Shown: positions 1 through 9,468 of the stretch, in pieces
Layout: every line of letters begins with the position of its first letter
Numbering within the stretch: position 1 is the first letter of the stretch
Virus record (IMG/VR): IMGVR_UViG_3300045988_006728
Length of the DNA stretch: 64,000 bases
Reading direction: 5' to 3' (one strand)
DNA from: a virus
Lineage: Duplodnaviria; Heunggongvirae; Uroviricota; Caudoviricetes
Program-made: the position numbers and the translations under genes
Notes under the pieces: model-generated
What the model saw: the letters and a program-made list of their open reading frames with translations, nothing else
Databases searched by the model: none
Told to the model about the DNA's origin: nothing

Positions 1-190
1 TTAAAAAAGTTGTTGACAAAGTACTTGACAAGGTGTAGGCTTCTAAATACTTAGAAGATAACTTAAAAGGTTCCTCTAAAAAGGCTATTTAAACAGATAT
101 CTTTCTGGATATCTATCTTTTATCTTAAAAGCCTTTTAAGAGGTCTTATAAGAGGCATACCAATGAAAAACAGAACAAACAAAGGCCAGT
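1..190. repeat. Tandem direct repeat, copy 1 (190-bp unit)
   Basis: Positions 1-190 are identical to 191-380; the unit carries two TTGACA hexamers, palindromes CTTCTAA-ATAC-TTAGAAG and AGATATC-N6-GATATCT, and the first 12 codons of the ORF at 353. Confidence 0.9.
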
Positions 191-389
191 TTAAAAAAGT
201 TGTTGACAAAGTACTTGACAAGGTGTAGGCTTCTAAATACTTAGAAGATAACTTAAAAGGTTCCTCTAAAAAGGCTATTTAAACAGATATCTTTCTGGAT
301 ATCTATCTTTTATCTTAAAAGCCTTTTAAGAGGTCTTATAAGAGGCATACCAATGAAAAACAGAACAAACAAAGGCCAGTTTAAAAAAG
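191..389. repeat. Tandem direct repeat, copy 2 plus 9-nt start of a third copy
   Basis: Exact repetition of 1-190; sequence diverges after ttaaaaaag at 381-389. Confidence 0.9.
203..243 (+). promoter_or_regulatory. Sigma70-like promoter with duplicated -35 (TTGACA-N6-TTGACA); identical copy at 13-53
   Basis: TTGACA at 203-208 and 215-220 inside the conserved 12-mer CTTGACAAGGTG; the -10 region is weak (TAGGCT/TACTTA). Confidence 0.4.
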
Positions 390-724
390 GCCAATCTGGA
401 AACCCATCTGGAAGACCAAAAGGCTCTCGTAACAAAAGCTCACTTGTAAAAGCTCAACTGACCATTGATAATTCTGCTGAGTTTGCTGCAAAACTGTTTG
501 AGGCGATTGTTACAAGAGATGCTGCTAAGCTTGCAGAGTTCGGGTTAAACACAGACGACGTAACCATCAAGAGCATGATTGAGGTCGGTAAAACTATCAT
601 GACTCACTCAGCAGGTGAGATGAAAGCGATTGCAGCAGACACTAAGAAGACACCTGATAATGGTGGTCAGTCTCAGACAGATAACAAACCAACGTTCTCT
701 GCTGTAGCGATTCTCAAAAAATAA
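353..724 (+). CDS. Hypothetical basic protein with N-terminal Gly/Pro/Arg-rich motif (GNPSGRPKGSRN)
   Basis: 123-aa ORF; its start codon and first 12 codons lie inside the tandem repeat. Confidence 0.5.
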   Translation: MKNRTNKGQFKKGQSGNPSGRPKGSRNKSSLVKAQLTIDNSAEFAAKLFEAIVTRDAAKLAEFGLNTDDVTIKSMIEVGKTIMTHSAGEMKAIAADTKKTPDNGGQSQTDNKPTFSAVAILKK

Positions 725-736
725 TTTTAAAAGGTG

Positions 737-771
737 TTGACAGACTCTACAAAGTTGCTCTAAAGTCTGTC
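737..771 (+). promoter_or_regulatory. Promoter overlapped by an 8-bp inverted repeat (GACAGACT-N17-AGTCTGTC)
   Basis: TTGACA at 737-742; perfect inverted repeat 739-746/764-771 spans the spacer and -10 region upstream of the ORF at 807. Confidence 0.45.
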
Positions 772-806
772 ACATCAACAAACAAAATGAGAGAAGAGAG
801 TAAAAT

Positions 807-2222
807 ATGAGCGAATTATTCAAACATGCGCACCTTCATGCAGGTCGAACTGAAAATGGTGCTGTAAACCATACTTCATCAATGTCTGCTCTTGTAGACT
901 TTTACAAAGCTGCTGGTTCAAGCCGTAGCAACGTAGAAATCTTACCAGACCTGTTCTACAAAGCTTTGCGTGAGGATGTTGATGTTGCAGTTCGTATTTT
1001 GCTTCATATGCGAGATGTACGAGAAGGTATGGGTGAGCGTAAAGCCTTCAGAACTGTTTTACTTCAAGCGATTGAAGACAAAGTTTTAGAGCCTACGCAG
1101 GTTCTTCGCATTATGGATAAGATTGCAGAACTTGGTCGTTTTGATGACTTCAAAATCTTCGTAGGTACTCGTTTCGAGACAGATGCCTTCAAACATCTAG
1201 AAGCAGCATTACTAGACCCTGCAACAGCAGGTTTGGCGGCTAAGTGGTTACCACGAGTCAAACCACGTCATAAGCAGTTTGTAAAACGTTTCTGCAAGTT
1301 TGCCAACTTGAGTGAGAAAGAGTACCGCACACTGTTGTCTGCACTATCTGATACAGTTGAGCAAAAAATCTCTGCTAATGAGTTTGGTAAGATTGACTAC
1401 AGTAAGATTCCTTCACTTGCTGCTGCACGTTACCAAAAACTGTTTAACCGCAAAGATGGAGAACGCTACAAAGCTTACATCGAGTCCTTATCAAAGGGTG
1501 AGGCTAAGATTAATGCTGGTGCTGTTTACCCATACGATGTAATTAAATCTGTTAAGCATGGTAATGCAGATGTTGCTAATGAGCAGTGGAAAGCACTACC
1601 AAACTGGATGGCAGAGGGTGAAAACATCTTGTGTATGTCTGATGTTTCAAGCTCAATGTCTTGGGTGAATTTTGGTTCAATTACTGCTCTTGATATTGGT
1701 GTTTCACTTGCATTGTATGTAGCAGAACGTAATACAGGTTGCTTTAAGAATGAGTTGATGGTTTATTCAACAAACCCTCACTTCATCGAACTGAGTGGTG
1801 ATTTACGAAACCGTAATCGTCAGGTGATGCGACACGTTGAATATGGCTCAACTAACTTACAAGCAGCTTTTGACCGCATTCTTGAGATAGGTAAGAGAAA
1901 CAACTTGACTCAGAAAGATATGCCAAGTAAGCTTATCATCTTCTCCGATATGGAGTTCAATCAGGTTGATGGGGCTAACGGTCGTACAAACTTTGAAGCA
2001 ATTCAGAGTAAGTACAAAAAAGCTGGATACGAAATGCCTCAACTGGTATTCTGGTACTTAGCAAACCGTAATGGTACTTGCGAAGTGTCTGTTAAGGATA
2101 ACGGTGTAGCAATGGTATCTGGTTTTTCTCCAGCTACTTTAAAAGCTCTGCTTGGTGGTGAGAAGTTTGACCCAATCAGCGTAATGCTCAAAGCAGTAAT
2201 GATTGACCGTTATATCTGGTAA
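807..2222 (+). CDS. vWA-domain protein with MIDAS motif (D-V-S-S-S); possible TROVE/Ro60-like RNA-binding protein
   Basis: 471-aa ORF; DxSxS at ILCMSDVSSSMS about residue 276 with hydrophobic beta-strand context; helical N-terminal domain beginning TENGAV...LVDFYKAAGS, loosely like the Ro60 N-terminus as recalled. Confidence 0.45.
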   Translation: MSELFKHAHLHAGRTENGAVNHTSSMSALVDFYKAAGSSRSNVEILPDLFYKALREDVDVAVRILLHMRDVREGMGERKAFRTVLLQAIEDKVLEPTQVLRIMDKIAELGRFDDFKIFVGTRFETDAFKHLEAALLDPATAGLAAKWLPRVKPRHKQFVKRFCKFANLSEKEYRTLLSALSDTVEQKISANEFGKIDYSKIPSLAAARYQKLFNRKDGERYKAYIESLSKGEAKINAGAVYPYDVIKSVKHGNADVANEQWKALPNWMAEGENILCMSDVSSSMSWVNFGSITALDIGVSLALYVAERNTGCFKNELMVYSTNPHFIELSGDLRNRNRQVMRHVEYGSTNLQAAFDRILEIGKRNNLTQKDMPSKLIIFSDMEFNQVDGANGRTNFEAIQSKYKKAGYEMPQLVFWYLANRNGTCEVSVKDNGVAMVSGFSPATLKALLGGEKFDPISVMLKAVMIDRYIW

Positions 2223-2237
2223 AAAGTTTTAAAAAGG

Positions 2238-2275
2238 GTATTGACAATGTGTTTGATACCCTTTAATATGTTCTA
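2238..2275 (+). promoter_or_regulatory. Sigma70-like promoter (TTGACA-17-TAATAT)
   Basis: Good -35/-10 match with 17-bp spacer upstream of the tRNA array. Confidence 0.5.
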
Positions 2276-2330
2276 CATAGAAACGAAACGAGAGCTTTTC
2301 TAAGATACTGAAAAATATTTTAAAAAAGTT

Positions 2331-2368
2331 CTTGACAATCACTAAAAAATAATGTTAAAGTGGTTACA
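2331..2368 (+). promoter_or_regulatory. Sigma70-like promoter (TTGACA-17-TTAAAG)
   Basis: Second promoter in tandem directly upstream of the first tRNA. Confidence 0.4.
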
Positions 2369-2387
2369 TAGAGTTTGAAAAGTTTAT

Positions 2388-2464
2388 CTCTGTTTAGCTC
2401 AGCTTGGTAGAGCGTTCCGTTTGGGGCGGTAAGGCCGGAGGTTCAAGTCCTCCAACAGAGACCA
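2388..2464 (+). tRNA. tRNA-Pro (anticodon TGG)
   Basis: Acceptor ctctgtt/aacagag, D-arm gctc-agcttggta-gagc, T-arm ggagg-ttcaagt-cctcc, anticodon loop tttgggg, encoded CCA. Confidence 0.7.
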
Positions 2465-2471
2465 AATTAAT

Positions 2472-2549
2472 GTTCCAGTAGACAAAATGGTAAAGTCACC
2501 ACTCTTTCAAAGTGGATATCTGAGGGTTCAAATCCCTTCTGGAACGCCA
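2472..2549 (+). tRNA. tRNA-Glu (anticodon TTC)
   Basis: Acceptor gttccag/ctggaac, anticodon stem ccact/agtgg with loop ctttcaa, T-loop ttcaaat, CCA. Confidence 0.7.
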
Positions 2550-2556
2550 GTTTTGA

Positions 2557-2628
2557 CAGAAGACCAATTACAGCAAACTTAATCTACTCATCTGACACGA
2601 AATCGGACAAAGAAGATATTTGGTCTGG
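2557..2628 (+). ncRNA. Structured inter-tRNA element, unit 1 (A box CAGAAGACC ... B box GGTCTGG); candidate Y RNA-like stem-loop
   Basis: AGACC of the A box pairs with GGTCT of the B box; conserved TaCAGCAA follows the A box; same framing repeated at three other sites. Confidence 0.35.
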
Positions 2629-2639
2629 TCATTGAGAAT

Positions 2640-2716
2640 TGCGGGTATAGAGAAAGGGCGTCTCACATGTCTCATTAGCATGGTATCGGCAGGTTCGACT
2701 CCTGCACCCGCCTCCA
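2640..2716 (+). tRNA. tRNA-Met (anticodon CAT)
   Basis: Anticodon stem catgt/gcatg with loop ctcatta, T-arm gcagg-ttcgact-cctgc, CCA; first acceptor pair mismatched and position 37 is T. Confidence 0.55.
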
Positions 2717-2722
2717 ATTTTG

Positions 2723-2782
2723 CAGAAGACCGTATTCAGCAACAAAATACTTTTTGCGGATAAAAGAAAAAACACGGTCTGG
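2723..2782 (+). ncRNA. Structured inter-tRNA element, unit 2 (A/B box framed)
   Basis: CAGAAGACCgtaTtCAGCAA at 2723 and GGTCTGG at 2776; the inner helix shows compensatory changes relative to unit 1. Confidence 0.35.
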
Positions 2783-2793
2783 CAATGTATTAA

Positions 2794-2870
2794 GGTTAGG
2801 AAGCACATAAGGTATGTGCGGTCGCCTGTTAAGCGAATGGCACAGGGTTCGAATCCCTGACTAACCGCCA
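2794..2870 (+). tRNA. tRNA-Asn (anticodon GTT)
   Basis: Anticodon loop ctgttaa, T-arm caggg-ttcgaat-ccctg, acceptor 3' strand actaacc, CCA. Confidence 0.65.
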
Positions 2871-2879
2871 AATTTAAAT

Positions 2880-2967
2880 GTGTCGTTATCCCGTAGATGG
2901 TAGCGGTGGGGACTGTAAATCCCTTGTCATTGAGACTCGGTAGGTTCGACTCCTACACGGCACACCA
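2880..2967 (+). tRNA. tRNA-Tyr (anticodon GTA), class II with long variable arm
   Basis: 88 nt; anticodon stem gggga/tccct with loop ctgtaaa; T-arm gtagg-ttcgact-cctac; CCA. Confidence 0.65.
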
Positions 2968-2972
2968 ATAAA

Positions 2973-3050
2973 GGTTATGTAGTTTAATTTGGTTAAAATA
3001 CTCCCCTGTCACGGGAGATGATGAGGGTTCAAATCCCTTCGTAACCGCCA
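2973..3050 (+). tRNA. tRNA-Asp (anticodon GTC)
   Basis: Anticodon stem ctccc/gggag with loop ctgtcac; T-loop ttcaaat; CCA. Confidence 0.65.
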
Positions 3051-3111
3051 ATTTTGAGAGGGCTATTTAGCCCCTCCCTTAAAGGGTTCTTACGAGTATC
3101 CTTTAAAGGAG

Positions 3112-3184
3112 CAGAAGACCAAATACAGCAAGAACGTATGAAATTTCAAGCCAATTTAATTTTGAAAATTTAAACTTGGTCTGG
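3112..3184 (+). ncRNA. Structured inter-tRNA element, unit 3a (A/B box framed)
   Basis: CAGAAGACCaaaTaCAGCAA at 3112 and GGTCTGG at 3178. Confidence 0.35.
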
Positions 3185-3197
3185 CTCAACAAATTTA

Positions 3198-3329
3198 CAG
3201 AAGACCGTTTACAGCAAAACTTAAACAATCTATTTCTCCGGTAAAGAAAAGGCGAAGGTTCGATTCCTTCACTCGGCAGATGTCGAGTTGGTGTAATGGT
3301 AGCACTTAAGATGATAAACAACGGTCTGG
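3198..3329 (+). ncRNA. Structured element, unit 3b, with internal tRNA-mimic domain; candidate YrlA-like Y RNA
   Basis: A box at 3198 and B box at 3323 frame a T-arm (gaagg-ttcgatt-ccttc, 3254-3270), a 7-bp acceptor-like helix closed by a 4-nt loop (actcggc-agat-gtcgagt, 3271-3288) and a D-arm (gtg-taatggtag-cac); there is no anticodon arm. Confidence 0.4.
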
Positions 3330-3330
3330 T

Positions 3331-3474
3331 AATTATCTTTGTAGATAAGTTATTAAGCTTACCTGTGAGTATGCGACCACAAAGGGTGAAAGGGTAAATT
3401 CTAGATTTAAACCCAAAAAGGCACATCGCTACAGACCTTAAGCAAGTCTGGGTAGCTTATCTACAAAGATAATT
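3331..3474 (+). repeat. Perfect 19-bp inverted repeat (AATTATCTTTGTAGATAAG) flanking a 106-bp structured segment
   Basis: 3331-3349 is the exact reverse complement of 3456-3474; the interior holds further hairpins (cagac-N8-gtctg); ends 4 nt before tRNA-Lys. Confidence 0.6.
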
Positions 3475-3478
3475 TAAT

Positions 3479-3554
3479 GGAAGTGTAGCAGAATGGTGAT
3501 GCGGCAGACTTTTAATCTGACAGGCGATGGGTTCGAATCCCTCCACTTCTACCA
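3479..3554 (+). tRNA. tRNA-Lys (anticodon TTT)
   Basis: Anticodon loop cttttaa, D-loop aatggtga, T-loop ttcgaat, acceptor ggaagtg/cacttct, CCA; paralog of the tRNA at 5201. Confidence 0.7.
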
Positions 3555-3558
3555 ATAT

Positions 3559-3635
3559 GGTTCAGTCGCAGATAAGGTAATGCAGGGGTCTCATAAGCCC
3601 TATGAATGTGGGTTCGATTCCCATCTGAACCTCCA
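3559..3635 (+). tRNA. tRNA with anticodon CAT (Met, fMet or Ile2)
   Basis: Perfect acceptor ggttcag/ctgaacc, anticodon loop ctcataa, T-loop ttcgatt, CCA. Confidence 0.7.
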
Positions 3636-3636
3636 A

Positions 3637-3712
3637 GCTGGTATAGTTAAGAAGGTTATAACACTCCCCTGATAAGGGAACATCGGTGGTTCGATTCCAC
3701 CTACCAGTACCA
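3637..3712 (+). tRNA. tRNA-Ile (anticodon GAT)
   Basis: Anticodon loop ctgataa, T-arm ggtgg-ttcgatt-ccacc, CCA. Confidence 0.7.
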
Positions 3713-3723
3713 ATTTCAATAAA

Positions 3724-3759
3724 GTTGTTGACATTGAGATGTGACTACTTTATAGTAAC
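3724..3759 (+). promoter_or_regulatory. Sigma70-like promoter (TTGACA-17-TATAGT)
   Basis: Strong -35/-10 match; followed by about 230 nt of structured non-coding sequence before tRNA-Arg. Confidence 0.5.
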
Positions 3760-3987
3760 CTTAGTTTTCGTTGCGTAGCGTCTATTTTGCAAATTTAAAA
3801 TAAATGCAAACGACAATGTTTTTCTGGCAGTAGCTTGATAGGCTAAACACCAGTGAGGTCTTCCAATCCCTCATCAAAGAATTTGGCGTACTCGCCCACG
3901 GTATGATTAATAATGTGGGCAACACTCTAAAGGGTATCCCTTATGGGTCTTGGCTTAAATGCAATAAGTACCCTTTAAAATGTTAAT

Positions 3988-4064
3988 GCACCCTTAGTTC
4001 AATTGGATAGAGCAACGGTCTTCTAAATCGTTAGTTACAGGTTCGAATCCTGTAGGGTGTGCCA
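3988..4064 (+). tRNA. tRNA-Arg (anticodon TCT)
   Basis: Anticodon stem acggt/atcgt with loop cttctaa; T-loop ttcgaat; acceptor gcaccct/agggtgt; CCA. Confidence 0.7.
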
Positions 4065-4207
4065 ATTTAGTTAGCAGATTGCTTAGACGACCTTATCGGG
4101 TCTCCGTGTAAGGAGGTGGTCTGTATCTCATGTTTTCCAGAACATGTAAATAATCTGAGAAGGTGCTTTACAGTGTTGAGATAATACGGTAAGCTTCGAA
4201 TTATAGT

Positions 4208-4290
4208 GTGGGACGATGTTAAGACTCTAAGGCATGAGCAACGGCCTCCAAAACCGTTTCAAAGTGGTTCAACTCCTCCGTCCCATGCCA
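4208..4290 (+). tRNA. Atypical tRNA-like gene, anticodon loop ctCCAaa (Trp?), 8-bp acceptor helix
   Basis: 8-bp helix gtgggacg/cgtcccat, discriminator G, CCA and T-loop ttcaact are present, but the D-region is about 8 nt too long for a canonical fold. Confidence 0.35.
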
Positions 4291-4303
4291 AAGTCTTATT
4301 AGG

Positions 4304-4393
4304 GGTAGGTAGCGGCTAATGGTAGCCAAACTGTCTTGAAAACAGTTGCCACTGTAGAGATACGGTGAGGGTTCGACTCCTTTACTTACCGCC
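4304..4393 (+). tRNA. tRNA-Ser (anticodon TGA), class II
   Basis: 90 nt; anticodon stem actgt/acagt with loop cttgaaa; long variable arm; T-loop ttcgact; discriminator G; only CC of CCA encoded. Confidence 0.65.
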
Positions 4394-4662
4394 TAATAAG
4401 ATTTAAAGCCAAGCTTCATTCGGATGTTGCTTTGGTATCCCTCGTGTATTGTCGTACACGCACAGTAAAGCACCTAGTAGGTGTCACGGAGAAGAGATAA
4501 TATCAAGCTCTCCAAAGGTTCTAGTCACCGGATTAAACAAGACTATGCAAAGACCTTTTTAGGTCTTTTTAGAGGGCTTCTAAGGTTATTACAGCTTGTT
4601 GTGGAACCTTGTTGCTTAGGTTCTTAGAAGTTCTCTAAAAAGATTTAATGGGAGATTGACAT

Positions 4663-5115
4663 ATGGCACGTAGCAGTTTGACTAAAGATATTCTTGAACC
4701 TTTAGTAAAGGGTTCAGTATCATTCAGAGAAGTGCTTATAAAGCTTGGGAGAAAACCATCAGGTGGTTCTCAGTCACATCTAAAGCGTGTTATAGAGAAG
4801 TTTGAAATAGACACTTCTCATTTCCTCGGACAAAAGGCTGGTAAGATTAAAACTGTACCAAAAAGAAAGCCTGAAGAAATCTTAATTCTACGTGAATCTG
4901 GTGAAAGAGCAAGGTCTTCACAACTAAGAAGAGCTTTAATAGCATCTGGTATCGAATACAAATGCTCTAAATGCGGTCAGTTACCGGAGTGGTTGGGCAA
5001 CCCTCTAACTCTTGATGTTGACCACATTAATGAGAACTGGTTAGATGATAGAAAAGAGAATCTTCGGTTCTTATGTCCAAATTGCCACAGTCAATTCTCA
5101 AGGCATTTGATTTAA
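4663..5115 (+). CDS. HNH homing endonuclease inside the tRNA array
   Basis: 150-aa ORF with C-terminal HNH signature DVDHINENW...RFLCPNCHSQ; stop codon lies 2 nt before the next tRNA. Confidence 0.7.
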   Translation: MARSSLTKDILEPLVKGSVSFREVLIKLGRKPSGGSQSHLKRVIEKFEIDTSHFLGQKAGKIKTVPKRKPEEILILRESGERARSSQLRRALIASGIEYKCSKCGQLPEWLGNPLTLDVDHINENWLDDRKENLRFLCPNCHSQFSRHLI

Positions 5116-5116
5116 T

Positions 5117-5193
5117 GCACCTATAGCCCAACTGGTAGAGGCAGCAGACTTAGAATCTGCTCAGTGTGAGTTCGAATCTCTCTAGGTGTACCA
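5117..5193 (+). tRNA. tRNA with anticodon TAG (decodes Leu CUA) but class I, short-variable-arm fold
   Basis: Acceptor gcaccta/taggtgt, anticodon stem gcaga/tctgc with loop cttagaa, T-loop ttcgaat, CCA; variable arm only 5 nt. Confidence 0.55.
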
Positions 5194-5200
5194 AATTAAT

Positions 5201-5276
5201 GCAGGTGTAGCAAAATGGTTATGCGGCTGACTCTTAATCAGTAAGACGATGGGTTCAATTCCCTCCACCTGTACCA
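5201..5276 (+). tRNA. tRNA-Lys (anticodon CTT)
   Basis: Paralog of tRNA-Lys(TTT) at 3479 with a compensatory change in the anticodon stem; loop ctcttaa; CCA. Confidence 0.65.
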
Positions 5277-5282
5277 GACATT

Positions 5283-5358
5283 GGGGATGTAGTTTACATG
5301 GTTAAAACATAAGTTTTGCAAACTTAAGTACAGGGTTCAATTCCCTGCTTCTCCACCA
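5283..5358 (+). tRNA. tRNA-Ala (anticodon TGC)
   Basis: G3-U70 wobble pair in the acceptor stem (ggggatg/cttctcc), anticodon loop tttgcaa, T-arm caggg-ttcaatt-ccctg, CCA. Confidence 0.7.
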
Positions 5359-5364
5359 ATTAGT

Positions 5365-5439
5365 GCATCCATAGTTTAAACGGGAAAATTACAGTCTTCC
5401 AAACTGAGGTTGAGGGTTCGAGTCCCTTCGGATTCTCCA
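5365..5439 (+). tRNA. tRNA-Gly (anticodon TCC), acceptor stem imperfect
   Basis: Anticodon loop cttccaa, T-arm gaggg-ttcgagt-ccctt, CCA; two mismatches in the acceptor helix. Confidence 0.5.
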
Positions 5440-5477
5440 AGTTATTTTACTCTCTCTCAATTAAAATAATAATAATG

Positions 5478-5528
5478 CCCTGCTATAAGTATTCTTCCTT
5501 TCGCTACCGAAGAGTATTTTTAGACAGG
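5478..5528 (+). terminator. Hairpin plus T-run at the end of the tRNA array
   Basis: gccctg...cagggc followed by tttttt. Confidence 0.35.
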
Positions 5529-5661
5529 GCTTTTTTACAGAGTTATACTTTATAGGAAGACTTATACAGTATGTCTCTGACGTACATTGTGGTTTCTCCT
5601 TGACGGTCTCTGTGCCGTCTTTTTTAAGGGGAAACATGGTTAATTATTTGGAGAAAACATA

Positions 5662-5862
5662 ATGAGTGAGACCGTTTACAAAGAACTTTATGAAGCTAAT
5701 AAAAAGCTAGAATTTATGCAGAACACTATCATGGCAATTGCAGATAGATTATCTGTAGCAACAGGTATTGATATTAAAGAAGCATCTATGGATGCACTTC
5801 TTGATGCTGTTGATGCAAAGTTCGAAGTTAAGAAAGAAGAGACTGCTACAGACTCTGAATAA
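5662..5862 (+). CDS. Hypothetical small protein upstream of the large terminase (small terminase role unproven)
   Basis: 66-aa ORF tightly coupled to the terminase gene. Confidence 0.35.
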   Translation: MSETVYKELYEANKKLEFMQNTIMAIADRLSVATGIDIKEASMDALLDAVDAKFEVKKEETATDSE

Positions 5863-5883
5863 TTCTATTTGCGGAGGCGCTTA

Positions 5884-7485
5884 ATGGACTTAAATGCTGT
5901 TAAGCAGAAGCGAGTGGAAGATGTTAGGAAAGTCCTAGCTGGAGAGTTGGGGCTTTCTGATGAAGTAAAAGAAATTATTAAATCATTCGGTAAAGACCCC
6001 TCTAAATTCCTTCCAACTCAAATTCTGACTTTATTAAGATACACACCAGACCAAGTTCGCCTTATCTTTAAATTGATGACTGATAAGAACTATGTAGCCC
6101 CTCAGCCGGGTTCTCAAGAGGTCTTTTTAAATACTAATGCTGACTTGGTTCTCTATGGTGGTGCTGCTGGTGCTGGTAAGACTGCCGCATTGTTAATGGA
6201 CTCTTTAAGATTTATTGAAGACCCTAACTATAATGCTGTATATTTCCGTCGAAATACAACACAGTTACAAGGTGGTTTATGGCCTGCTGCAAAGAAACTA
6301 TTTGGTAAGTTTGGTGGGATTCCTCACGAGCAGAAAATGACTATCACATTCCCTTCTGGGGCAACTATCAAGTTTACCTACCTAGAACTTGAAAAGCACG
6401 CTGAAGGTCATCAGGGTATTGAATACTCAGCTATTTACTTTGACGAAGGTACACACTTCTCTGCTTCACAGATTTCATACCTACAAACCCGTCTACGTTC
6501 TGGTGCTGAAGGCGATTCATACATGAAGATTTCCATGAACCCAGACAGAGACCACTTTATTTACGATTGGGTAGAGCCATTCTTAGATGAAGAAGGCTAC
6601 CCAGACCCTGAAAAATGTGGTCGTATTCGTTGGTATGTAATGAACGATGGCGTGATGGTTTCTGATTGGGAGAGAGACAAGATTCTTGAAATGTTCCCCC
6701 TTGAGATTCCTCAAACATACACCTTTATTTCTGGTACGATTGATGATAACCCAATCCTTGACTTCTTAGAGCCTAAGTACCGTGGTAAGCTGGAAAACAA
6801 CACTCCTTTAAACGTTGCAAGACTTCGTTTCGGTAACTGGAAGGCTCGTGCAGAAGGTTCAAACTATTGGCAAAGACAATGGTGTGAAATTGTTGATTCA
6901 CTCCCAGAAGATGTATTTGATGTTAGAGCATGGGACTTAGCAGCAACTTTACCATCTGAGATTAACCCTAATCCAGACTGGACAGCAGGTGTTAAGATGG
7001 GTAAATCTAAAAAAGACGGTTGCTATTATATCATTGATGTAGTAAGATTTAGAGATAGACCCTCTGGAGTCGAAACACAAATTAATTTGACTGCTGAAAG
7101 TGACGGTAAGCGAACTGGTATTTTTATCCCTCAAGACCCAGGCGCTGCTGGTAAATCCTACGCAACATCCCTCATCAGGAAACTTGCCGAGAAAGGTTAT
7201 CGAGCAAGAGCCAAACCAACAAATAAAGATAAAGTTACCCGCTTTGCGGGATTTTCTGCTGCTTCTGAAGCTGGACTTGTAAAAGTCTTGAGAGGTAGTT
7301 GGAATGAAGCTTACTTTCAAGAGCTTGAAGGCTTTTGTGGTGATGGCAAAACTAAAGATGACCAAGTGGATGCTACCAGTGATGCTTTCAACAGTCTTAA
7401 CGAAGTTAAATTATTCAAGCCACCATCAATGGGCGCTCACACAGACTTAGTGAGGGGAAACCCATATGAGGGGCTTAGACGTTGA
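5884..7485 (+). CDS. Terminase large subunit
   Basis: Walker A LYGGAAGAGKT and a C-terminal nuclease-like region; GGAGG RBS before ATG at 5884 (the track ORF begins at 5869). Confidence 0.8.
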   Translation: MDLNAVKQKRVEDVRKVLAGELGLSDEVKEIIKSFGKDPSKFLPTQILTLLRYTPDQVRLIFKLMTDKNYVAPQPGSQEVFLNTNADLVLYGGAAGAGKTAALLMDSLRFIEDPNYNAVYFRRNTTQLQGGLWPAAKKLFGKFGGIPHEQKMTITFPSGATIKFTYLELEKHAEGHQGIEYSAIYFDEGTHFSASQISYLQTRLRSGAEGDSYMKISMNPDRDHFIYDWVEPFLDEEGYPDPEKCGRIRWYVMNDGVMVSDWERDKILEMFPLEIPQTYTFISGTIDDNPILDFLEPKYRGKLENNTPLNVARLRFGNWKARAEGSNYWQRQWCEIVDSLPEDVFDVRAWDLAATLPSEINPNPDWTAGVKMGKSKKDGCYYIIDVVRFRDRPSGVETQINLTAESDGKRTGIFIPQDPGAAGKSYATSLIRKLAEKGYRARAKPTNKDKVTRFAGFSAASEAGLVKVLRGSWNEAYFQELEGFCGDGKTKDDQVDATSDAFNSLNEVKLFKPPSMGAHTDLVRGNPYEGLRR

Positions 7486-7492
7486 TAGCTAG

Positions 7493-8968
7493 GTGAGAAG
7501 AATGGCAGATATTACAGAAACACAAGAAAGCTTACCACCATTTAGGATGGGTGAAGTAGGTTCTTTGGGTCTGAAGGTTAAGAATGGAAGAATCTATGAA
7601 GAACCTCGTCAGGCACTAAGGTTCCCTGAAAGTATTAAAACTTTCCAATTAATGATGCGTGACCCCGCTGTAGCAGCATCTGTAAATATTATTAAGATGT
7701 TTGTCAGAAAAGTCAACTGGAGATTCGTACCTCCAAAGGGAAAAGAGCAAGACCCTAAAATGCTTGAAAGAGCAGACTTCTTTAATTCTTTAATGGATGA
7801 CATGGAGCATGATTGGGCAGATTTTATTAACTCTGTAATGTCATTCTGCACTTATGGGTTCTGTGTTAATGAAAAGGTTTATAAGAAGCGTCAGGGTAAG
7901 AAAGGAAAGTACCAGTCTAAATTTGATGATGGTCTAATTGGATGGGCTAAATTACCAATCAGAAACCAATCAACACTTGATAAGTGGTATTTTGACGAAG
8001 ACTTTAGAAAAGTTACTGGTGTTAGACAGAATCTGAGAAATGTTTCACATATTGCTGGAGCAATTAATCTTGGAGAAAGACCACTAACAAGAAAACTCCC
8101 ACGAGCTAAATTCATGCTGTTTAAGTATGACGATGAATATGGAAACCCAGAAGGTCGTTCACCATTACTTAATGCCTATGTGCCGTGGAAGTATAAAGTT
8201 CAGATTGAAGAGTACGAAGCAGTCGGTGTTTCAAGAGACTTGGTAGGTATGCCAAAAATTGGTTTACCACCAGATTATCTGGATGAAAATGCAGAACCTG
8301 AAAAGAAAGCTTTCGTACAATACTGCAAAACTGTTGTTAACGATATGATTGCTAATGATAGAGCAGGTTTAATCTGGCCTAGATATATCGACCCAGATAC
8401 TAAAGAGGATATTTTTGAGTTCTCATTAGTTTCTAGACAGGGTGCTAAAGCATACGATACAGGTTCTATTATTGACAGATATTCCAAGCAGATTATGATG
8501 GCATTTATGTCAGATGTTCTTGCTATGGGTCAGTCAAAATATGGTTCATTCTCTCTTGCAGATTCTAAGACAAGCTTACTAGCAATGTCAGTAGATATTC
8601 TGCTGAAGCAAATTAAGAACGTAATTAACCGTGATTTAGTTGCACAGACTTATGCTCTTAATATGTGGGACGATGAAGAACATGTGCAAATCACATATGA
8701 TGATATCGAAACCCCAGACCTTGAAGTAATTGGTTCTTATATCCAGAAGACTGTTGCAGTAGGTGCTTTGGAAGTTGACAAAGAGCTATCTAACAAGCTT
8801 AGAGAGCATATTGGTCTTCCTCCTGCTGATGAGTCTCAGCCAGTATCTGAAAAGCTTTCTCCAAATAGCCAAAGCCGTTCAGGAGATGGTTATAAGACCG
8901 CTGGAGAAGGTACTGCAAAGACACCTTCAGCGAAAGACCCAAGCACAGCAAATAAGGCAAATAAATAA
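7493..8968 (+). CDS. Portal protein
   Basis: 491-aa ORF immediately after the terminase, acidic/Gly-rich C-terminus; call rests on position and size. Confidence 0.6.
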   Translation: MRRMADITETQESLPPFRMGEVGSLGLKVKNGRIYEEPRQALRFPESIKTFQLMMRDPAVAASVNIIKMFVRKVNWRFVPPKGKEQDPKMLERADFFNSLMDDMEHDWADFINSVMSFCTYGFCVNEKVYKKRQGKKGKYQSKFDDGLIGWAKLPIRNQSTLDKWYFDEDFRKVTGVRQNLRNVSHIAGAINLGERPLTRKLPRAKFMLFKYDDEYGNPEGRSPLLNAYVPWKYKVQIEEYEAVGVSRDLVGMPKIGLPPDYLDENAEPEKKAFVQYCKTVVNDMIANDRAGLIWPRYIDPDTKEDIFEFSLVSRQGAKAYDTGSIIDRYSKQIMMAFMSDVLAMGQSKYGSFSLADSKTSLLAMSVDILLKQIKNVINRDLVAQTYALNMWDDEEHVQITYDDIETPDLEVIGSYIQKTVAVGALEVDKELSNKLREHIGLPPADESQPVSEKLSPNSQSRSGDGYKTAGEGTAKTPSAKDPSTANKANK

Positions 8969-9468
8969 TGGCTGAAGTTATCTCTATTTCAAATGCTACA
9001 CGAGTGCATTCGTATAGAGGTGTTCTTATTATCACTGACAAATTATCTGTAGAGGCTGGCTCAAGGGTCAGCCTTTCAGGTTATGTAAGTGATGGTGGAA
9101 CCTCTGACGTTTTCACTATTTGCAGGTTACTTGATGCACCAATGAGTGGAAAACCGTTTATTTTAGGAAATTGTAGTGAAATTGTTAAAATTCCATTTGA
9201 CAGTTCATGCCTTTTGGGTGTAAAGTTATATAACTGCGAGAATAAACGTATCAATGTTAATAGCATTGAAGCCGCTTTCATTACCCTCGACACTGCATTT
9301 CAATCTCCAATGACAGTTAATAAAGAAACAAACAGACTTGAATACATTTTTTCACAAAATGATTACAAAGTACTTGTCAAAGGCAAAGTATATGATATGA
9401 TTGTAAATGTGGTAGATGAATCTGGTAACCATTCAACAGTCCTTAAACAAAAAGTAAGGTTTAATTAA
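8968..9468 (+). CDS. Hypothetical head-module protein
   Basis: 166-aa ORF, start overlaps portal stop. Confidence 0.4.
   Translation: MAEVISISNATRVHSYRGVLIITDKLSVEAGSRVSLSGYVSDGGTSDVFTICRLLDAPMSGKPFILGNCSEIVKIPFDSSCLLGVKLYNCENKRINVNSIEAAFITLDTAFQSPMTVNKETNRLEYIFSQNDYKVLVKGKVYDMIVNVVDESGNHSTVLKQKVRFN

What the first reader, a model, noticed from the sequence alone, without database searches (positions are those of the whole stretch)
2388..5439. Large tRNA array whose repertoire overlaps known anticodon-nuclease targets
About 16 tRNA genes are packed into 3 kb: Pro, Glu, Met, Asn, Tyr, Asp, Lys(TTT), a second CAT tRNA, Ile, Arg(TCT), a Trp-like gene, Ser, a TAG-anticodon tRNA, Lys(CTT), Ala and Gly. 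The set includes Lys(TTT), the PrrC target, and Tyr/Asn/Asp and Arg, the classes cut by colicin E5- and D-type nucleases. Phage tRNA arrays are known both to match phage codon usage and to replace host tRNAs destroyed by defence nucleases.
Basis: partly seen in the sequence, partly recalled or inferred. Interest (0 to 1): 0.55.

Follow-up and report, generated by a model that had tools for sequence, protein, structure and literature searches.

The report
Phage tRNA array hiding Y-RNA-like genes
The tRNA cluster is real and is the well-known array of Felix O1-like phages, here shortened by a deletion, but its gaps hold four unannotated Y-RNA-like genes, one a tRNA mimic, that probably partner the Ro60-like anti-defence protein encoded just upstream.

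Summary
ARAGORN tRNA genes, all on the + strand, at 2388-5439 and none in the other 61 kb.

The array is the conserved Ounavirinae (Felix O1-like) array. Three members are unusual:
- The "Trp-like" gene (4208-4290) is a conserved non-canonical tRNA that prediction tools miss.
- The last gene, "Gly-TCC", is a Gly/Cys hybrid at a deletion junction. The deletion removed about 10 tRNAs that relatives carry.
- The CAT tRNA at 2640 looks initiator-like.

The anticodon-nuclease reading is a known hypothesis and is only partly supported:
- Lys-UUU, Tyr, Asn, Asp and Arg-UCU have anticodon loops identical to the host's.
- Codon usage explains about six of the tRNAs.
- Relatives carry tRNAs for nearly all amino acids, so overlap with nuclease targets is not specific.

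The gaps hold the new material. Four structured RNAs sit at 2552-2632, 2718-2786, 3107-3188 and 3193-3333. Each has a closing helix followed by a CAGCAA motif. The last one carries a circularly permuted tRNA-like module, as in bacterial YrlA Y RNAs.

The upstream gene (807-2222) folds like Ro60 and is 97% identical to Bas63 gp130, a reported counter to the Ppl defence system. The same RNA design recurs beside homologous Ro-like genes in many unrelated phages, always on the gene's strand and with strong covariation. It is absent from the T5 tRNA array.

The parts
807..2222 (+). Ro60-like protein gene (HEAT-repeat ring plus vWA/MIDAS domain; Pfam DUF2828+DUF7788); ortholog of Bas63 gp130
   Evidence: Pfam and PHROG 850 'RNA-binding protein'. 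AF2 model with pLDDT 88. The top 11 Foldseek hits in the PDB are all Ro60/TROVE, E down to 4.5e-8, TM 0.35-0.62 (0.51-0.62 for ten of them). 97% identical to bas63_0130. MIDAS residues D279, S281, S283, T349 and D381 are invariant.
2241..2361 (+). two sigma-70-like promoters (TTGACA-17-TAATAT; TTGACA-18-TAAAGT with TG) ahead of tRNA-Pro
   Evidence: consensus match only
2388..2464 (+). tRNA-Pro(UGG)
2472..2549 (+). tRNA-Glu(UUC)
2552..2632 (+). Y-RNA-like element 1 (short form): UGAC-AGA-AGACCAA-UU-ACAGCAA ... UUGGUCU-G-GUCA
   Evidence: repeat family D8, fold, model R1 at 49.2 bits, E 1e-9
2640..2716 (+). tRNA(CAU), initiator-like: 1:72 mismatch, same acceptor sequence as the tRNA annotated fMet in T5, U at position 37
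   Evidence: no match to a tRNA-clan model in Rfam
2718..2786 (+). Y-RNA-like element 2 (short form)
   Evidence: R1 at 46.4 bits; the outer stem covaries between phages (UUGC/GCAA vs UUAC/GUAA)
2794..2870 (+). tRNA-Asn(GUU)
2880..2967 (+). tRNA-Tyr(GUA), long variable arm
   Evidence: weak in Rfam
2973..3050 (+). tRNA-Asp(GUC)
3107..3188 (+). Y-RNA-like element 3 (short form)
   Evidence: R1 at 31.2 bits, E 1.7e-5 with filters off
3193..3333 (+). YrlA-like Y RNA: closing helices plus ACAGCAA, enclosing a permuted tRNA-like module (V hairpin, T arm GAAGGUUCGAUUCCUUC, acceptor-like hairpin, D arm GUGUAAUGGUAGCAC)
   Evidence: fold; orthologs with a fully covarying acceptor-like stem; R1 hits in distant phages and covariation
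3331..3474 (+). conserved ~145-nt element closed by a 22-25 bp near-perfect duplex; function unknown (RNase III site or separate small RNA)
   Evidence: inverted repeat I2; z = -6.1; conserved with a compensatory change in Susp- and Mooglevirus
3479..3554 (+). tRNA-Lys(UUU)
3559..3635 (+). tRNA(CAU), second copy; G1-C72, GGG/CCC in the anticodon stem; Met or Ile2 identity unresolved
3637..3712 (+). tRNA-Ile(GAU)
3728..3756 (+). internal sigma-70-like promoter TTGACA-17-TATAGT (11 of 12)
3988..4064 (+). tRNA-Arg(UCU)
4208..4290 (+). non-canonical tRNA-Trp-like gene (anticodon CCA, G73, C31.A39 mismatch, enlarged D loop); the window copy has one extra T-stem mismatch
4304..4393 (+). tRNA-Ser(UGA); no encoded CCA
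4663..5115 (+). HNH homing endonuclease inserted between tRNA-Ser and tRNA-Leu (present in SP22 and Michonne, absent in Bas63)
5117..5193 (+). tRNA-Leu(UAG), 77 nt, short variable arm, A73
5201..5276 (+). tRNA-Lys(CUU); Shigella flexneri 2457T has no counterpart (PMC12482277)
5283..5358 (+). tRNA-Ala(UGC)
5365..5439 (+). hybrid tRNA: Gly(UCC) 5' part fused in the T loop to the 3' part of tRNA-Cys; junction of the deletion that removed the right part of the array

Best explanation
The region is the left part of the conserved tRNA gene array of Felix O1-like (Ounavirinae) phages. It is read from strong sigma-70-type promoters as polycistronic precursors.

Contents:
- 14 ordinary tRNAs.
- One conserved non-canonical tRNA-Trp-like gene.
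- One Gly/Cys hybrid left by a deletion between two T-loop sequences.
- Four unannotated Y-RNA-like genes packed between the tRNAs: three short ones and one YrlA-like tRNA mimic.

The tRNAs supply codons that the AT-rich phage uses far more than its host (AGA, CCA, GCA, UCA, AAG, CUA). More generally, they keep translation running when host tRNAs decline late in infection or are attacked.

The Y-like RNAs lie within 3-8 nt of flanking tRNAs. They are probably released by the same RNase P and 3'-end processing that matures the tRNAs. They would then bind the ring-shaped Ro60-like protein encoded immediately upstream (the Bas63 gp130 ortholog, reported to counter the Ppl defence system). The resulting ribonucleoprotein, by analogy with bacterial Rsr-YrlA-PNPase and phage phiLo Ro60-Yrl complexes, would redirect or tether a host RNA-handling enzyme.

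Shown here: the genes, the RNA structures and their covariation, the Ro60-like fold, and the genomic linkage. Inferred: transcription and processing, RNA-protein binding, and the role of the RNAs in counter-defence.
For: tRNA calls.

Identity with the Felixounavirus array: 97 phage records cover at least 80% of the region, and the gene order is the same in SP22, SUSP1, Moogle, Sf13, Mordin, Michonne and Bas63.

Deletion hybrid.

Codon usage: AGA 0.40, CCA 0.52, GCA 0.40, UCA 0.30, AAG 0.42 of their families.

Y-like RNAs:
- Four copies of one design.
- They are the four best hits of model R1 in window 1-9000 with filters off: 156, 49, 46 and 31 bits, with the next hit at 15 bits.
- In 957 kb around Ro-like genes of 77 other phage loci plus the window, all 43 hits with E<=1 lie on the Ro gene's strand.
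- In the alignment of 28 hits, 97.4% of cells are paired and 25 of 27 pairs show compensatory changes. The covariation score is 0.527 against 0.134 in shuffles (0 of 500 reach it) and at most 0.066 when partners are slid.
- An independent motif scan gives 0.60 hits per kb within 700 nt of the gene on its strand, against 0.04-0.08 elsewhere. 45 of 75 loci are positive.
- Mycobacteriophage Snenia has three such elements right after its Ro-like gene. The middle one hits Rfam YrlA at 39 bits, E 3e-7.
- The T5 tRNA array, which has no Ro-like gene among its annotated features, has no hit above 13.7 bits.

Ro60-like fold. Orthology to Bas63 gp130.

The Ppl-counter phenotype, and the authors' unproven guess that Y RNAs hide in the array, are in 10.1101/2024.10.10.617714.
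Against: - There are no expression, processing or binding data for these RNAs.
- The canonical Ro-binding motif GNCGAA(N)G is not present as such. Only C-A-GAAG occurs at the equivalent position in Ounavirinae.
- Rfam's YrlA model does not hit the window even at E<=10.
- The protein has no sequence-level match to Ro60 or TROVE. The similarity is structural only (TM about 0.6).
- The alignment used for covariation was fitted to the model, which favours pairing.
- gp130's anti-Ppl effect has not been shown to need RNA.
- About 30 of the 75 Ro-like loci had no motif hit in the simple scan.
Confidence: 0.65

Rival explanations
1. Pure translation-supply array. The tRNAs exist only to match phage codon usage and to replace host tRNAs as the host genome and its tRNA supply decay late in infection. 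They have no role against defence nucleases, and the structured spacers are merely processing signals.
For: Strong codon-usage match for six tRNAs. The Sf14 study of the orthologous array favours an 'all-destructive infection' model and rejects nuclease escape. Anticodon loops of the classical nuclease targets are identical to the host's (one search compared). Bas63 tRNAs are mostly dispensable on laboratory strains.
Against: Asn, Tyr, Asp, Glu and Ile codons are used as in the host, so codon bias does not explain those genes. The spacers are not generic. Their design recurs next to Ro-like genes in phages that have no tRNA array (for example L010, L011, L020, L024, L062), and it is absent from the T5 array. 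The neighbouring gene is a reported counter-defence gene.
Confidence: 0.3
2. The array is kept mainly as a counter to anticodon nucleases, replacing or out-competing cleaved host Lys, Tyr, Asn, Asp and Arg tRNAs.
For: Demonstrated for T5-like phages and for phage tRNA-Lys against PrrC170 and PARIS. Strong promoters lie in the array, and overexpression was the mechanism proposed for T5 tRNA-Tyr. Phage Lys-UUU has U41 and Asn has G39/G41 at the AriB cleavage site (sequence compared). The initiator-like CAU tRNA has U37 beside the VapC cleavage region (the VapC site is recalled from general knowledge).
Against: Anticodon loops of the five named targets equal the host's. The repertoire is a deletion remnant of a near-complete set, so overlap with targets is uninformative. 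This genome has lost Thr-UGU, a prime PARIS target, yet appears otherwise intact. No experiment exists for this genus.
Confidence: 0.2
3. The four 'Y-like' elements are decayed tRNA genes or recombination and homing scars, not functional RNAs that partner Ro.
For: The array is clearly prone to rearrangement: a T-loop-mediated deletion, HNH endonuclease insertions and a tRNA remnant at about 3825-3880. The tRNA-like module could be read as a permuted pseudogene.
Against: Sequence and structure are conserved across three genera and, in design, across phages whose Ro-like proteins share only 30-50% identity. Compensatory changes occur in every helix. Strand and position are tied to the Ro-like gene. 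The order V-T-acceptor hairpin-D is exactly that of YrlA.
Confidence: 0.08

Closest known systems
tRNA gene arrays of Felix O1-like phages (Felix O1, wV8, Bas63, Sf14, Moogle)
   Same: Same genes in the same order at 87-97% nucleotide identity. Same position between the DUF2828 gene and the terminase module.
   Different: This genome lacks the right part of the array (Thr, Val, Leu, Arg, Gln, Leu, Gln, His, Phe and the 5' part of Cys, plus two ORFs). It ends in a Gly/Cys hybrid, and no other record in the phage collection shares that junction.
Bacterial Y RNAs YrlA and YrlB with Rsr (Ro60), e.g. Salmonella Typhimurium; YrlA in mycobacteriophages (Chen et al. 2014, PMC4201824)
   Same: Encoded beside, and on the strand of, a Ro60-type gene. 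The ends pair into a helix with an internal loop. One long form carries a tRNA-like domain in the order V, T, acceptor-like hairpin, D, alongside shorter forms without it.
   Different: No GNCGAA(N)G motif; instead a purine-rich junction (AGAAG) and U(W)CAGCAA. No hit to Rfam YrlA. The protein partner is the DUF2828 family, not Pfam TROVE. The genes are embedded in a tRNA array rather than an rtcBA repair operon.
Thermus phage phiLo Ro60 with Yrl1 and Yrl2 (PMC12135203)
   Same: A phage-encoded Ro60 ring with adjacent Y-like RNAs. The phiLo structure is among the top structural matches (9kop, 9l5y).
   Different: The phiLo RNAs lie upstream of the gene and carry a CGAA motif. They are not in a tRNA array. 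Binding and PNPase recruitment were shown there and not here.
Anticodon-nuclease-evading phage tRNAs (T5 tRNA-Tyr vs retron-Eco7; T5 tRNA-Lys/Thr/Asn vs PARIS; mycobacteriophage loop variants)
   Same: Same isoacceptors are present, driven by strong promoters.
   Different: Loops are identical to the host's for the classical targets. Only partial differences occur at the AriB site. No experimental evidence.
Small stable RNAs inside the T5 tRNA region (annotated RNAI, RNAIII, RNA1, RNA2, RNA3, etc.)
   Same: Non-tRNA stable RNAs, some called tRNA-like, interleaved with phage tRNA genes.
   Different: No similarity to the CAGCAA design (best R1 score 13.7 bits). No Ro-like gene is annotated in the T5 tRNA region.

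Membership tests
Phage tRNA gene array | Several cloverleaf tRNA genes clustered on one strand | tested here: met
   15 ARAGORN calls in 3.05 kb and none elsewhere; 13 pass the Rfam gathering score
Phage tRNA gene array | Conserved as an array in related phages | tested here: met
Nuclease-evading phage tRNAs | Anticodon-loop substitutions relative to the host isoacceptor in the targeted tRNAs | tested here: not met
   Lys-UUU, Tyr, Asn, Asp and Arg-UCU loops are identical to those of Shigella flexneri 2457T (searches compared with Table 8). Differences occur only in Pro, Glu, Ala, Leu-UAG and CAU-2640.
Nuclease-evading phage tRNAs | Substitutions at the PARIS/AriB site (positions 39-41 of the anticodon stem) | tested here: inconclusive
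   Lys-UUU reads U39 C40 U41 (host A41; T5 has A39 and C41). Asn reads G39 C40 G41 (E. coli Asn has U39 and C41)..
Nuclease-evading phage tRNAs | Resistance to cleavage, or rescue of infection on nuclease-carrying hosts | not testable with these tools
   Needs plating and cleavage assays.
Y RNA / YrlA | Encoded near and on the same strand as a Ro60 ortholog | tested here: met
   330-1111 nt downstream of the Ro60-like gene, same strand. The same holds in other phages.
Y RNA / YrlA | 5' and 3' ends form a helix interrupted by an internal loop or bulge | tested here: met
   A 4-bp outer helix, an AGA/G internal loop and a 7-8 bp inner helix in all four copies. Both helices covary.
Y RNA / YrlA | tRNA-like domain in the order V, T, acceptor-like hairpin, D | tested here: met
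   Element 3193-3333, compared with the description.
Y RNA / YrlA | Conserved Ro-binding motif GNCGAA(N)G / CGAA | tested here: not met
   The sequence reads NNNC-A-GAAG and then ACAGCAA. More distant members have AAAG... and U(W)CAGCAA.
Y RNA / YrlA | Match to Rfam RF02553 at the gathering score (69 bits) | tested here: not met
   No hit at E<=10 in the window. The homologous Snenia element reaches 39 bits.
Y RNA / YrlA | Bound by the Ro60 protein | not testable with these tools
   Needs RIP or EMSA.
Ro60 / TROVE proteins | HEAT-repeat ring followed by a vWA domain with a MIDAS site | tested here: met
   Foldseek: the top 11 PDB hits are Ro60/TROVE over the full length. DxSxS...T...D is invariant.
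Ro60 / TROVE proteins | Sequence match to Pfam TROVE or to solved Ro60 proteins | tested here: not met
   Pfam gives DUF2828/DUF7788 only. There is no PDB sequence hit.

The most novel reading that the evidence does not exclude
Many tailed phages that carry a DUF2828-type Ro60 protein also encode an unrecognised class of Y RNAs, defined by a closing helix followed by U(W)CAGCAA and often enclosing a tRNA-like module. In Felix O1-like phages these RNAs are produced by tRNA-style punctuation from inside the tRNA array. Together with the Ro60-like protein they form the ribonucleoprotein that actually carries out the reported counter-defence (anti-Ppl) activity, or protects the phage translation apparatus.
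Probability: 0.4. Interest if true: 0.75.

Novelty: new variant of a known kind. Interest (0 to 1): 0.6.

Why it matters
The tRNA array itself is textbook for this phage group, and the anticodon-nuclease idea is already in the literature.

What is new is the exact location of four Y-RNA-like genes that every annotated relative examined here either leaves blank or covers with tiny spurious ORFs. A conserved sequence and structure signature links them to a large family of phage Ro60-like proteins.

One member of that protein family, Bas63 gp130, has just been shown to neutralise a bacterial defence system. Its authors could only guess that Y RNAs might be hidden among the tRNAs. The coordinates and motif given here make that guess directly testable.

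They also offer a concrete candidate explanation for some of the small stable RNAs long known inside phage tRNA regions. In addition, the work gives a cautionary example: a "tRNA-Gly" call that is really a deletion-junction hybrid.

Tried and rejected
- Rfam at the gathering score and at E<=10 over 2200-5700 found nothing but tRNA-clan hits and chance matches for the gap elements. No YrlA, Y_RNA or tmRNA hit is credible; the 'permuted tmRNA' match at 29 bits overlaps tRNA-Ile.
- Sequence searches of the Ro-like protein and of its family profile against the PDB gave no Ro60 hit. Only the fold comparison did.
- The exact pattern AGAAGACC...GGTCT occurs only in Felixounavirus loci, so a looser design scan and a covariance model were needed.
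- A group I intron or mobile cassette around the Trp-like and Ser genes and the HNH gene was considered, because of nested long-range complementarity. No intron family matched, and this was not pursued.
- The Trp-like gene was considered as a decaying pseudogene. This was rejected because both stems show compensatory changes across genera.
- A relationship to the T5 stable RNAs was tested and rejected.
- The supplementary tables of Chen et al. 2014 and two Wolin reviews could not be read. I therefore cannot exclude that some enterobacterial phage Y RNAs were listed there.
- A literature search for DUF2828 returned only unrelated plant and animal papers.

Full report
**1. Observation.**
ARAGORN finds 15 tRNA genes between 2388 and 5439, all on the + strand, and none in the other ~61 kb of the window. 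Rfam's tRNA model passes its gathering score for 13 of them. The CAU tRNA at 2640 gets no match to a tRNA-clan model, and tRNA-Tyr matches only the related tRNA-Sec model at 29.6 bits. The "TAG-anticodon tRNA" is a 77-nt tRNA-Leu(UAG) with a short variable arm and A73.

**2. What genome this is.**
The 3.2 kb region matches 331 phage records. 97 of them cover at least 80% of it, at 87-97% identity among the best matches, and these are Felix O1-like phages of Escherichia, Salmonella, Shigella and Citrobacter. The gene order Pro-Glu-Met-Asn-Tyr-Asp ... Lys-Met-Ile ... Arg ... Ser ... Leu-Lys-Ala-Gly is the same in SP22, phiSUSP1, Moogle, Sf13, Mordin, Michonne and Bas63. The array is therefore an already known, conserved feature of the subfamily Ounavirinae.

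**3. The array is truncated, and its last gene is a hybrid.**
- In relatives the array continues after Gly with Thr, Val, Leu, Arg, Gln, Leu, Gln, His, Phe, an ORF and Cys.
- In the window, sequence identity to Bas63 tRNA-Gly stops inside the T loop. From there on the sequence is identical to wV8 tRNA-Cys and its downstream flank.
- The "Gly-TCC" gene at 5365-5439 is thus the junction of a deletion between two AGGGTTCGA T-arm sequences. Its acceptor stem has two mismatches (C2.U71 and A7.C66, read).
- No other record in the phage collection shares this junction.

**4. Non-canonical members.**
- The Trp-like gene (4208-4290) is missed by ARAGORN and weak in Rfam, but it is conserved in all Ounavirinae loci examined and in Yersinia phage P778.
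  - Anticodon CCA and discriminator G73 are invariant.
  - There is a C31.A39 (or C.C) mismatch and an enlarged D loop.
  - Compensatory changes occur in the anticodon stem (ACGG/CCGU to UAAG/CUUA) and in the T stem (G-C to U-A).
  - It is a functional non-canonical tRNA-like gene. The window copy has one extra T-stem mismatch.
- The CAU tRNA at 2640 shares its acceptor sequence and its 1:72 mismatch with the tRNA annotated as initiator in T5. It has U rather than A at position 37.
- The second CAU tRNA (3559) has G1-C72. Its identity (Met or Ile2) remains unresolved.

**5. What lies in the gaps.**
Four direct repeats of CAGAAGACC-N4/5-CAGCAA, each followed 40-110 nt later by GGUCUGG, lie at 2552-2632, 2718-2786, 3107-3188 and 3193-3333. 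All fold the same way:
- a 4-bp outer helix whose sequence differs between copies (UGAC/GUCA, UUGC/GCAA, GAGC/GCUC, UUAC/GUAA);
- an AGA/G internal loop;
- a 7-8 bp inner helix;
- then ACAGCAA.

The fourth copy encloses a small hairpin, a perfect T arm (GAAGGUUCGAUUCCUUC), a hairpin in place of the acceptor stem, and a D arm (GUGUAAUGGUAGCAC). This is a circularly permuted tRNA, in exactly the V-T-AS-D order that defines bacterial YrlA Y RNAs.

Among three Ounavirinae genera the T and D arms are invariant. The acceptor-like stem changes completely yet stays paired (CUCGGC/GUCGAG, CACGUU/GGCGUG, CCCUUC/GAAGGG). Every one of the 189 pair cells forms a standard pair.

The elements abut tRNAs with gaps of 3-8 nt. 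Maturation of the tRNAs would therefore release them (inference).

**6. The neighbouring gene.**
- ORF 807-2222 matches Pfam DUF2828 and DUF7788, weakly matches a vWA domain, and matches PHROG 850 "RNA-binding protein".
- It has no sequence match to solved structures.
- An AlphaFold model (pLDDT 88, pTM 0.88) has Ro60/TROVE structures as its top 11 Foldseek hits over the full length: Xenopus Ro60, D. radiodurans Rsr and Thermus phage phiLo Ro60. E-values go down to 4.5e-8 and TM scores are 0.51-0.62 for ten of the eleven (0.35 for Rsr). Isolated vWA domains follow.
- MIDAS residues are invariant in the family.
- The protein is 97% identical to bas63_0130.
- The PhageMaP preprint reports that gp130 resembles Ro60 and that its deletion sensitises Bas63 to the Ppl defence system. 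[quoted passage not shown]
- In Bas63 the region holding the third and fourth elements is annotated with two small minus-strand ORFs, and the first two elements are unannotated. Other relatives leave the region blank.

**7. The RNA design is a family trait of this Ro-like protein.**
- The protein has 2842 homologs at E<1e-5 and occurs in 710 phage records. These include mycobacteriophage "Ro-like RNA binding proteins" at about 34% identity.
- In mycobacteriophage Snenia, three tandem elements of the form GUGGAC-N4-ACAGCAA ... N4-GUCCAG follow the gene. The middle one has T, acceptor-like and D modules and hits Rfam YrlA at 39 bits.
- A simple scan (helix of at least 7 bp, 1-4 nt, CAGCAA, matching 3' strand) over 75 non-Felix viral loci gave the following:

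| Region scanned | Hits per kb |
|---|---|
| Within 700 nt of the gene, gene's strand | 0.60 |
| Elsewhere, gene's strand | 0.079 |
| Opposite strand | 0.04-0.05 |

  45 of the 75 loci are positive.
- A covariance model built only from seven Ounavirinae sequences found 43 hits with E<=1 in 957 kb, all on the Ro gene's strand. Many lie in phages with 40-45% protein identity.
- In the alignment of 28 hits, 97.4% of cells pair and 25 of 27 pairs show compensatory changes. Covariation is 0.527 against 0.134 in shuffles (0 of 500 reach it) and at most 0.066 with slid partners. The caveat is that the alignment was fitted to the model.
- In the window the four elements are the four best hits with filters off.
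- The T5 tRNA region has 24 tRNAs, several annotated stable RNAs and no Ro-like gene among its annotated features. It has no hit above 13.7 bits.
- About half of 40 Ro-like loci also carry tRNA clusters on the same strand, and four carry a tmRNA gene (one of them, L028, also has tRNAs). The Y-like RNAs also occur in loci without tRNAs.

**8.
- Comparison of the window's anticodon loops with the Shigella flexneri 2457T host loops tabulated for the sister phage Sf14:

| Compared with the host loop | tRNAs |
|---|---|
| Identical | Lys-UUU, Tyr, Asn, Asp, Arg-UCU, Ile, Ser, Gly, CAU-3559 |
| Different | Pro, Glu, Ala (position 38), CAU-2640 (position 37), Leu-UAG (three positions) |

  There is thus no loop-level escape signature in the classes cut by PrrC or by colicin E5- and D-type enzymes. 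That these enzymes recognise the loop is general knowledge, not tested here.
- For PARIS, AriB cuts E. coli tRNA-Lys at U36AAUC|A41, and T5 escapes through A39 and C41. The window's Lys-UUU reads UAAUCU (only position 41 differs). Its Asn reads UAAGCG (positions 39 and 41 differ from E. coli Asn, U36AAUC|C41). This is suggestive only. The deletion has also removed Thr-UGU, a prime PARIS target.
- Codon usage of 53 window ORFs (the E. coli values are approximate and recalled from memory):

| Codon | Window | E. coli (recalled) |
|---|---|---|
| AGA | 0.40 | ~0.04 |
| CCA | 0.52 | ~0.19 |
| GCA | 0.40 | ~0.21 |
| UCA | 0.30 | ~0.12 |
| AAG | 0.42 | ~0.24 |
| CUA | 0.10 | ~0.04 |

  Each of these six codons matches a phage tRNA. 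Asn, Tyr, Asp, Glu and Ile codons are used as in the host.
- The Sf14 study concluded against nuclease escape and for supply during host shutdown. PhageMaP found the Bas63 tRNAs mostly non-essential on four laboratory strains.
- Supply by overexpression from strong promoters, as proposed for T5 tRNA-Tyr, remains possible. Consensus-like promoters are present.
- Verdict: a legitimate but unproven and non-specific reading.

**9. Mechanism proposed.**
Shown:
- the genes;
- the RNA structures and their covariation;
- the Ro60-like fold;
- the genomic linkage across distant phages.

Inferred:
- The array is transcribed from the promoters at 2241-2361 and 3728-3756.
- RNase P and 3' processing of the tRNAs liberate the Y-like RNAs.
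- These RNAs bind the Ro60-like ring through the closing helix and the conserved junction and CAGCAA nucleotides.
- The tRNA-like module of the long form engages a tRNA-recognising host factor. This is by analogy with Rsr-YrlA-PNPase and phiLo Ro60-Yrl-PNPase.
- The complex contributes to the anti-Ppl phenotype of gp130, or to quality control of the phage tRNA pool.

**10. Rivals.**
The rivals are a pure supply array with inert spacers, the anticodon-nuclease reading, and spacers as tRNA relics. They are weighed in the Rival explanations section. The relic idea is contradicted by conservation, covariation and the linkage to Ro-like genes in phages without tRNA arrays.

**11. Novelty.**
- Known: the array, its possible defence role, and the Ro60-like nature of gp130.
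- Not found in the searchable literature: the four RNA genes, their signature, and its spread across the DUF2828-type Ro family. Some key reviews and supplements could not be read.
- I therefore rate the finding a new variant of a known kind (Y RNA with Ro60), found inside an otherwise ordinary feature.

Noticed in passing
window 5365-5439 (junction near 5421): The last 'tRNA-Gly' is a Gly/Cys hybrid formed by a deletion between the T-arm sequences of two tRNA genes. About 10 tRNAs and two ORFs present in relatives are missing, and no other phage record shares the junction.
   Followed up: yes
window 3331-3474: A ~145-nt element closed by a 22-25 bp near-perfect duplex (z = -6.1). It is conserved at the same place in Susp- and Mooglevirus, with a compensatory GUAG/CUAC to GCAG/CUGC change and an invariant internal AUUCUAGAUU. 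It has no Rfam match. It could be an RNase III site or a separate small RNA.
   Followed up: partly
window 3825-3880: An apparent decayed tRNA remnant (D-arm-like UAGCUUGAUAGGCUAA, T-arm-like GAGGUCUUCCAAUCCCUC) downstream of the near-consensus promoter at 3728-3756.
   Followed up: no
window 4093-4108/4485-4500 and 4161-4175/4461-4475: Nested long-range complementary segments bracket the Trp-like gene and tRNA-Ser. The 501-nt region folds with z = -3.7. The meaning is unknown.
   Followed up: no
window 2640-2716: This CAU tRNA has a 1:72 mismatch and the same acceptor sequence as the tRNA annotated as initiator in T5, plus U37 in the anticodon loop. The Sf14 paper treats the ortholog as non-initiator. 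If it is an initiator, it lies next to the region cut by VapC toxins.
   Followed up: partly
window 5117-5193 (also Bas63 L089 5235-5312 and 5976-6054): The tRNA-Leu genes examined in this phage group (the window's and two in Bas63) are 77-79 nt and lack the long variable arm typical of bacterial tRNA-Leu.
   Followed up: no
window 4663-5115: An HNH homing endonuclease gene sits inside the array between tRNA-Ser and tRNA-Leu. It is present in SP22 and Michonne and absent in Bas63. A 26-nt inverted repeat lies just upstream (4559-4584/4623-4648).
   Followed up: partly
window 353-724: A small DUF5681 protein gene immediately precedes the Ro60-like gene. An ORF of the same length occupies this position in SUSP1, Moogle and Bas63 (bas63_0129), and a smaller one in Yersinia phage P778. 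It is a possible third component of the module.
   Followed up: no
L034 5734-5833; L028, L032, L033, L044: In one distant phage, a CAGCAA-type element encloses an unpermuted D arm, anticodon arm and T arm without an acceptor stem. Four Ro-like loci carry a tmRNA gene on the gene's strand (downstream in three, upstream in L028).
   Followed up: no
L091 (T5 22000-50000): The T5 record annotates eight stable RNAs of unknown function, three of them called tRNA-like, inside its tRNA region. They do not match the CAGCAA design.
   Followed up: partly
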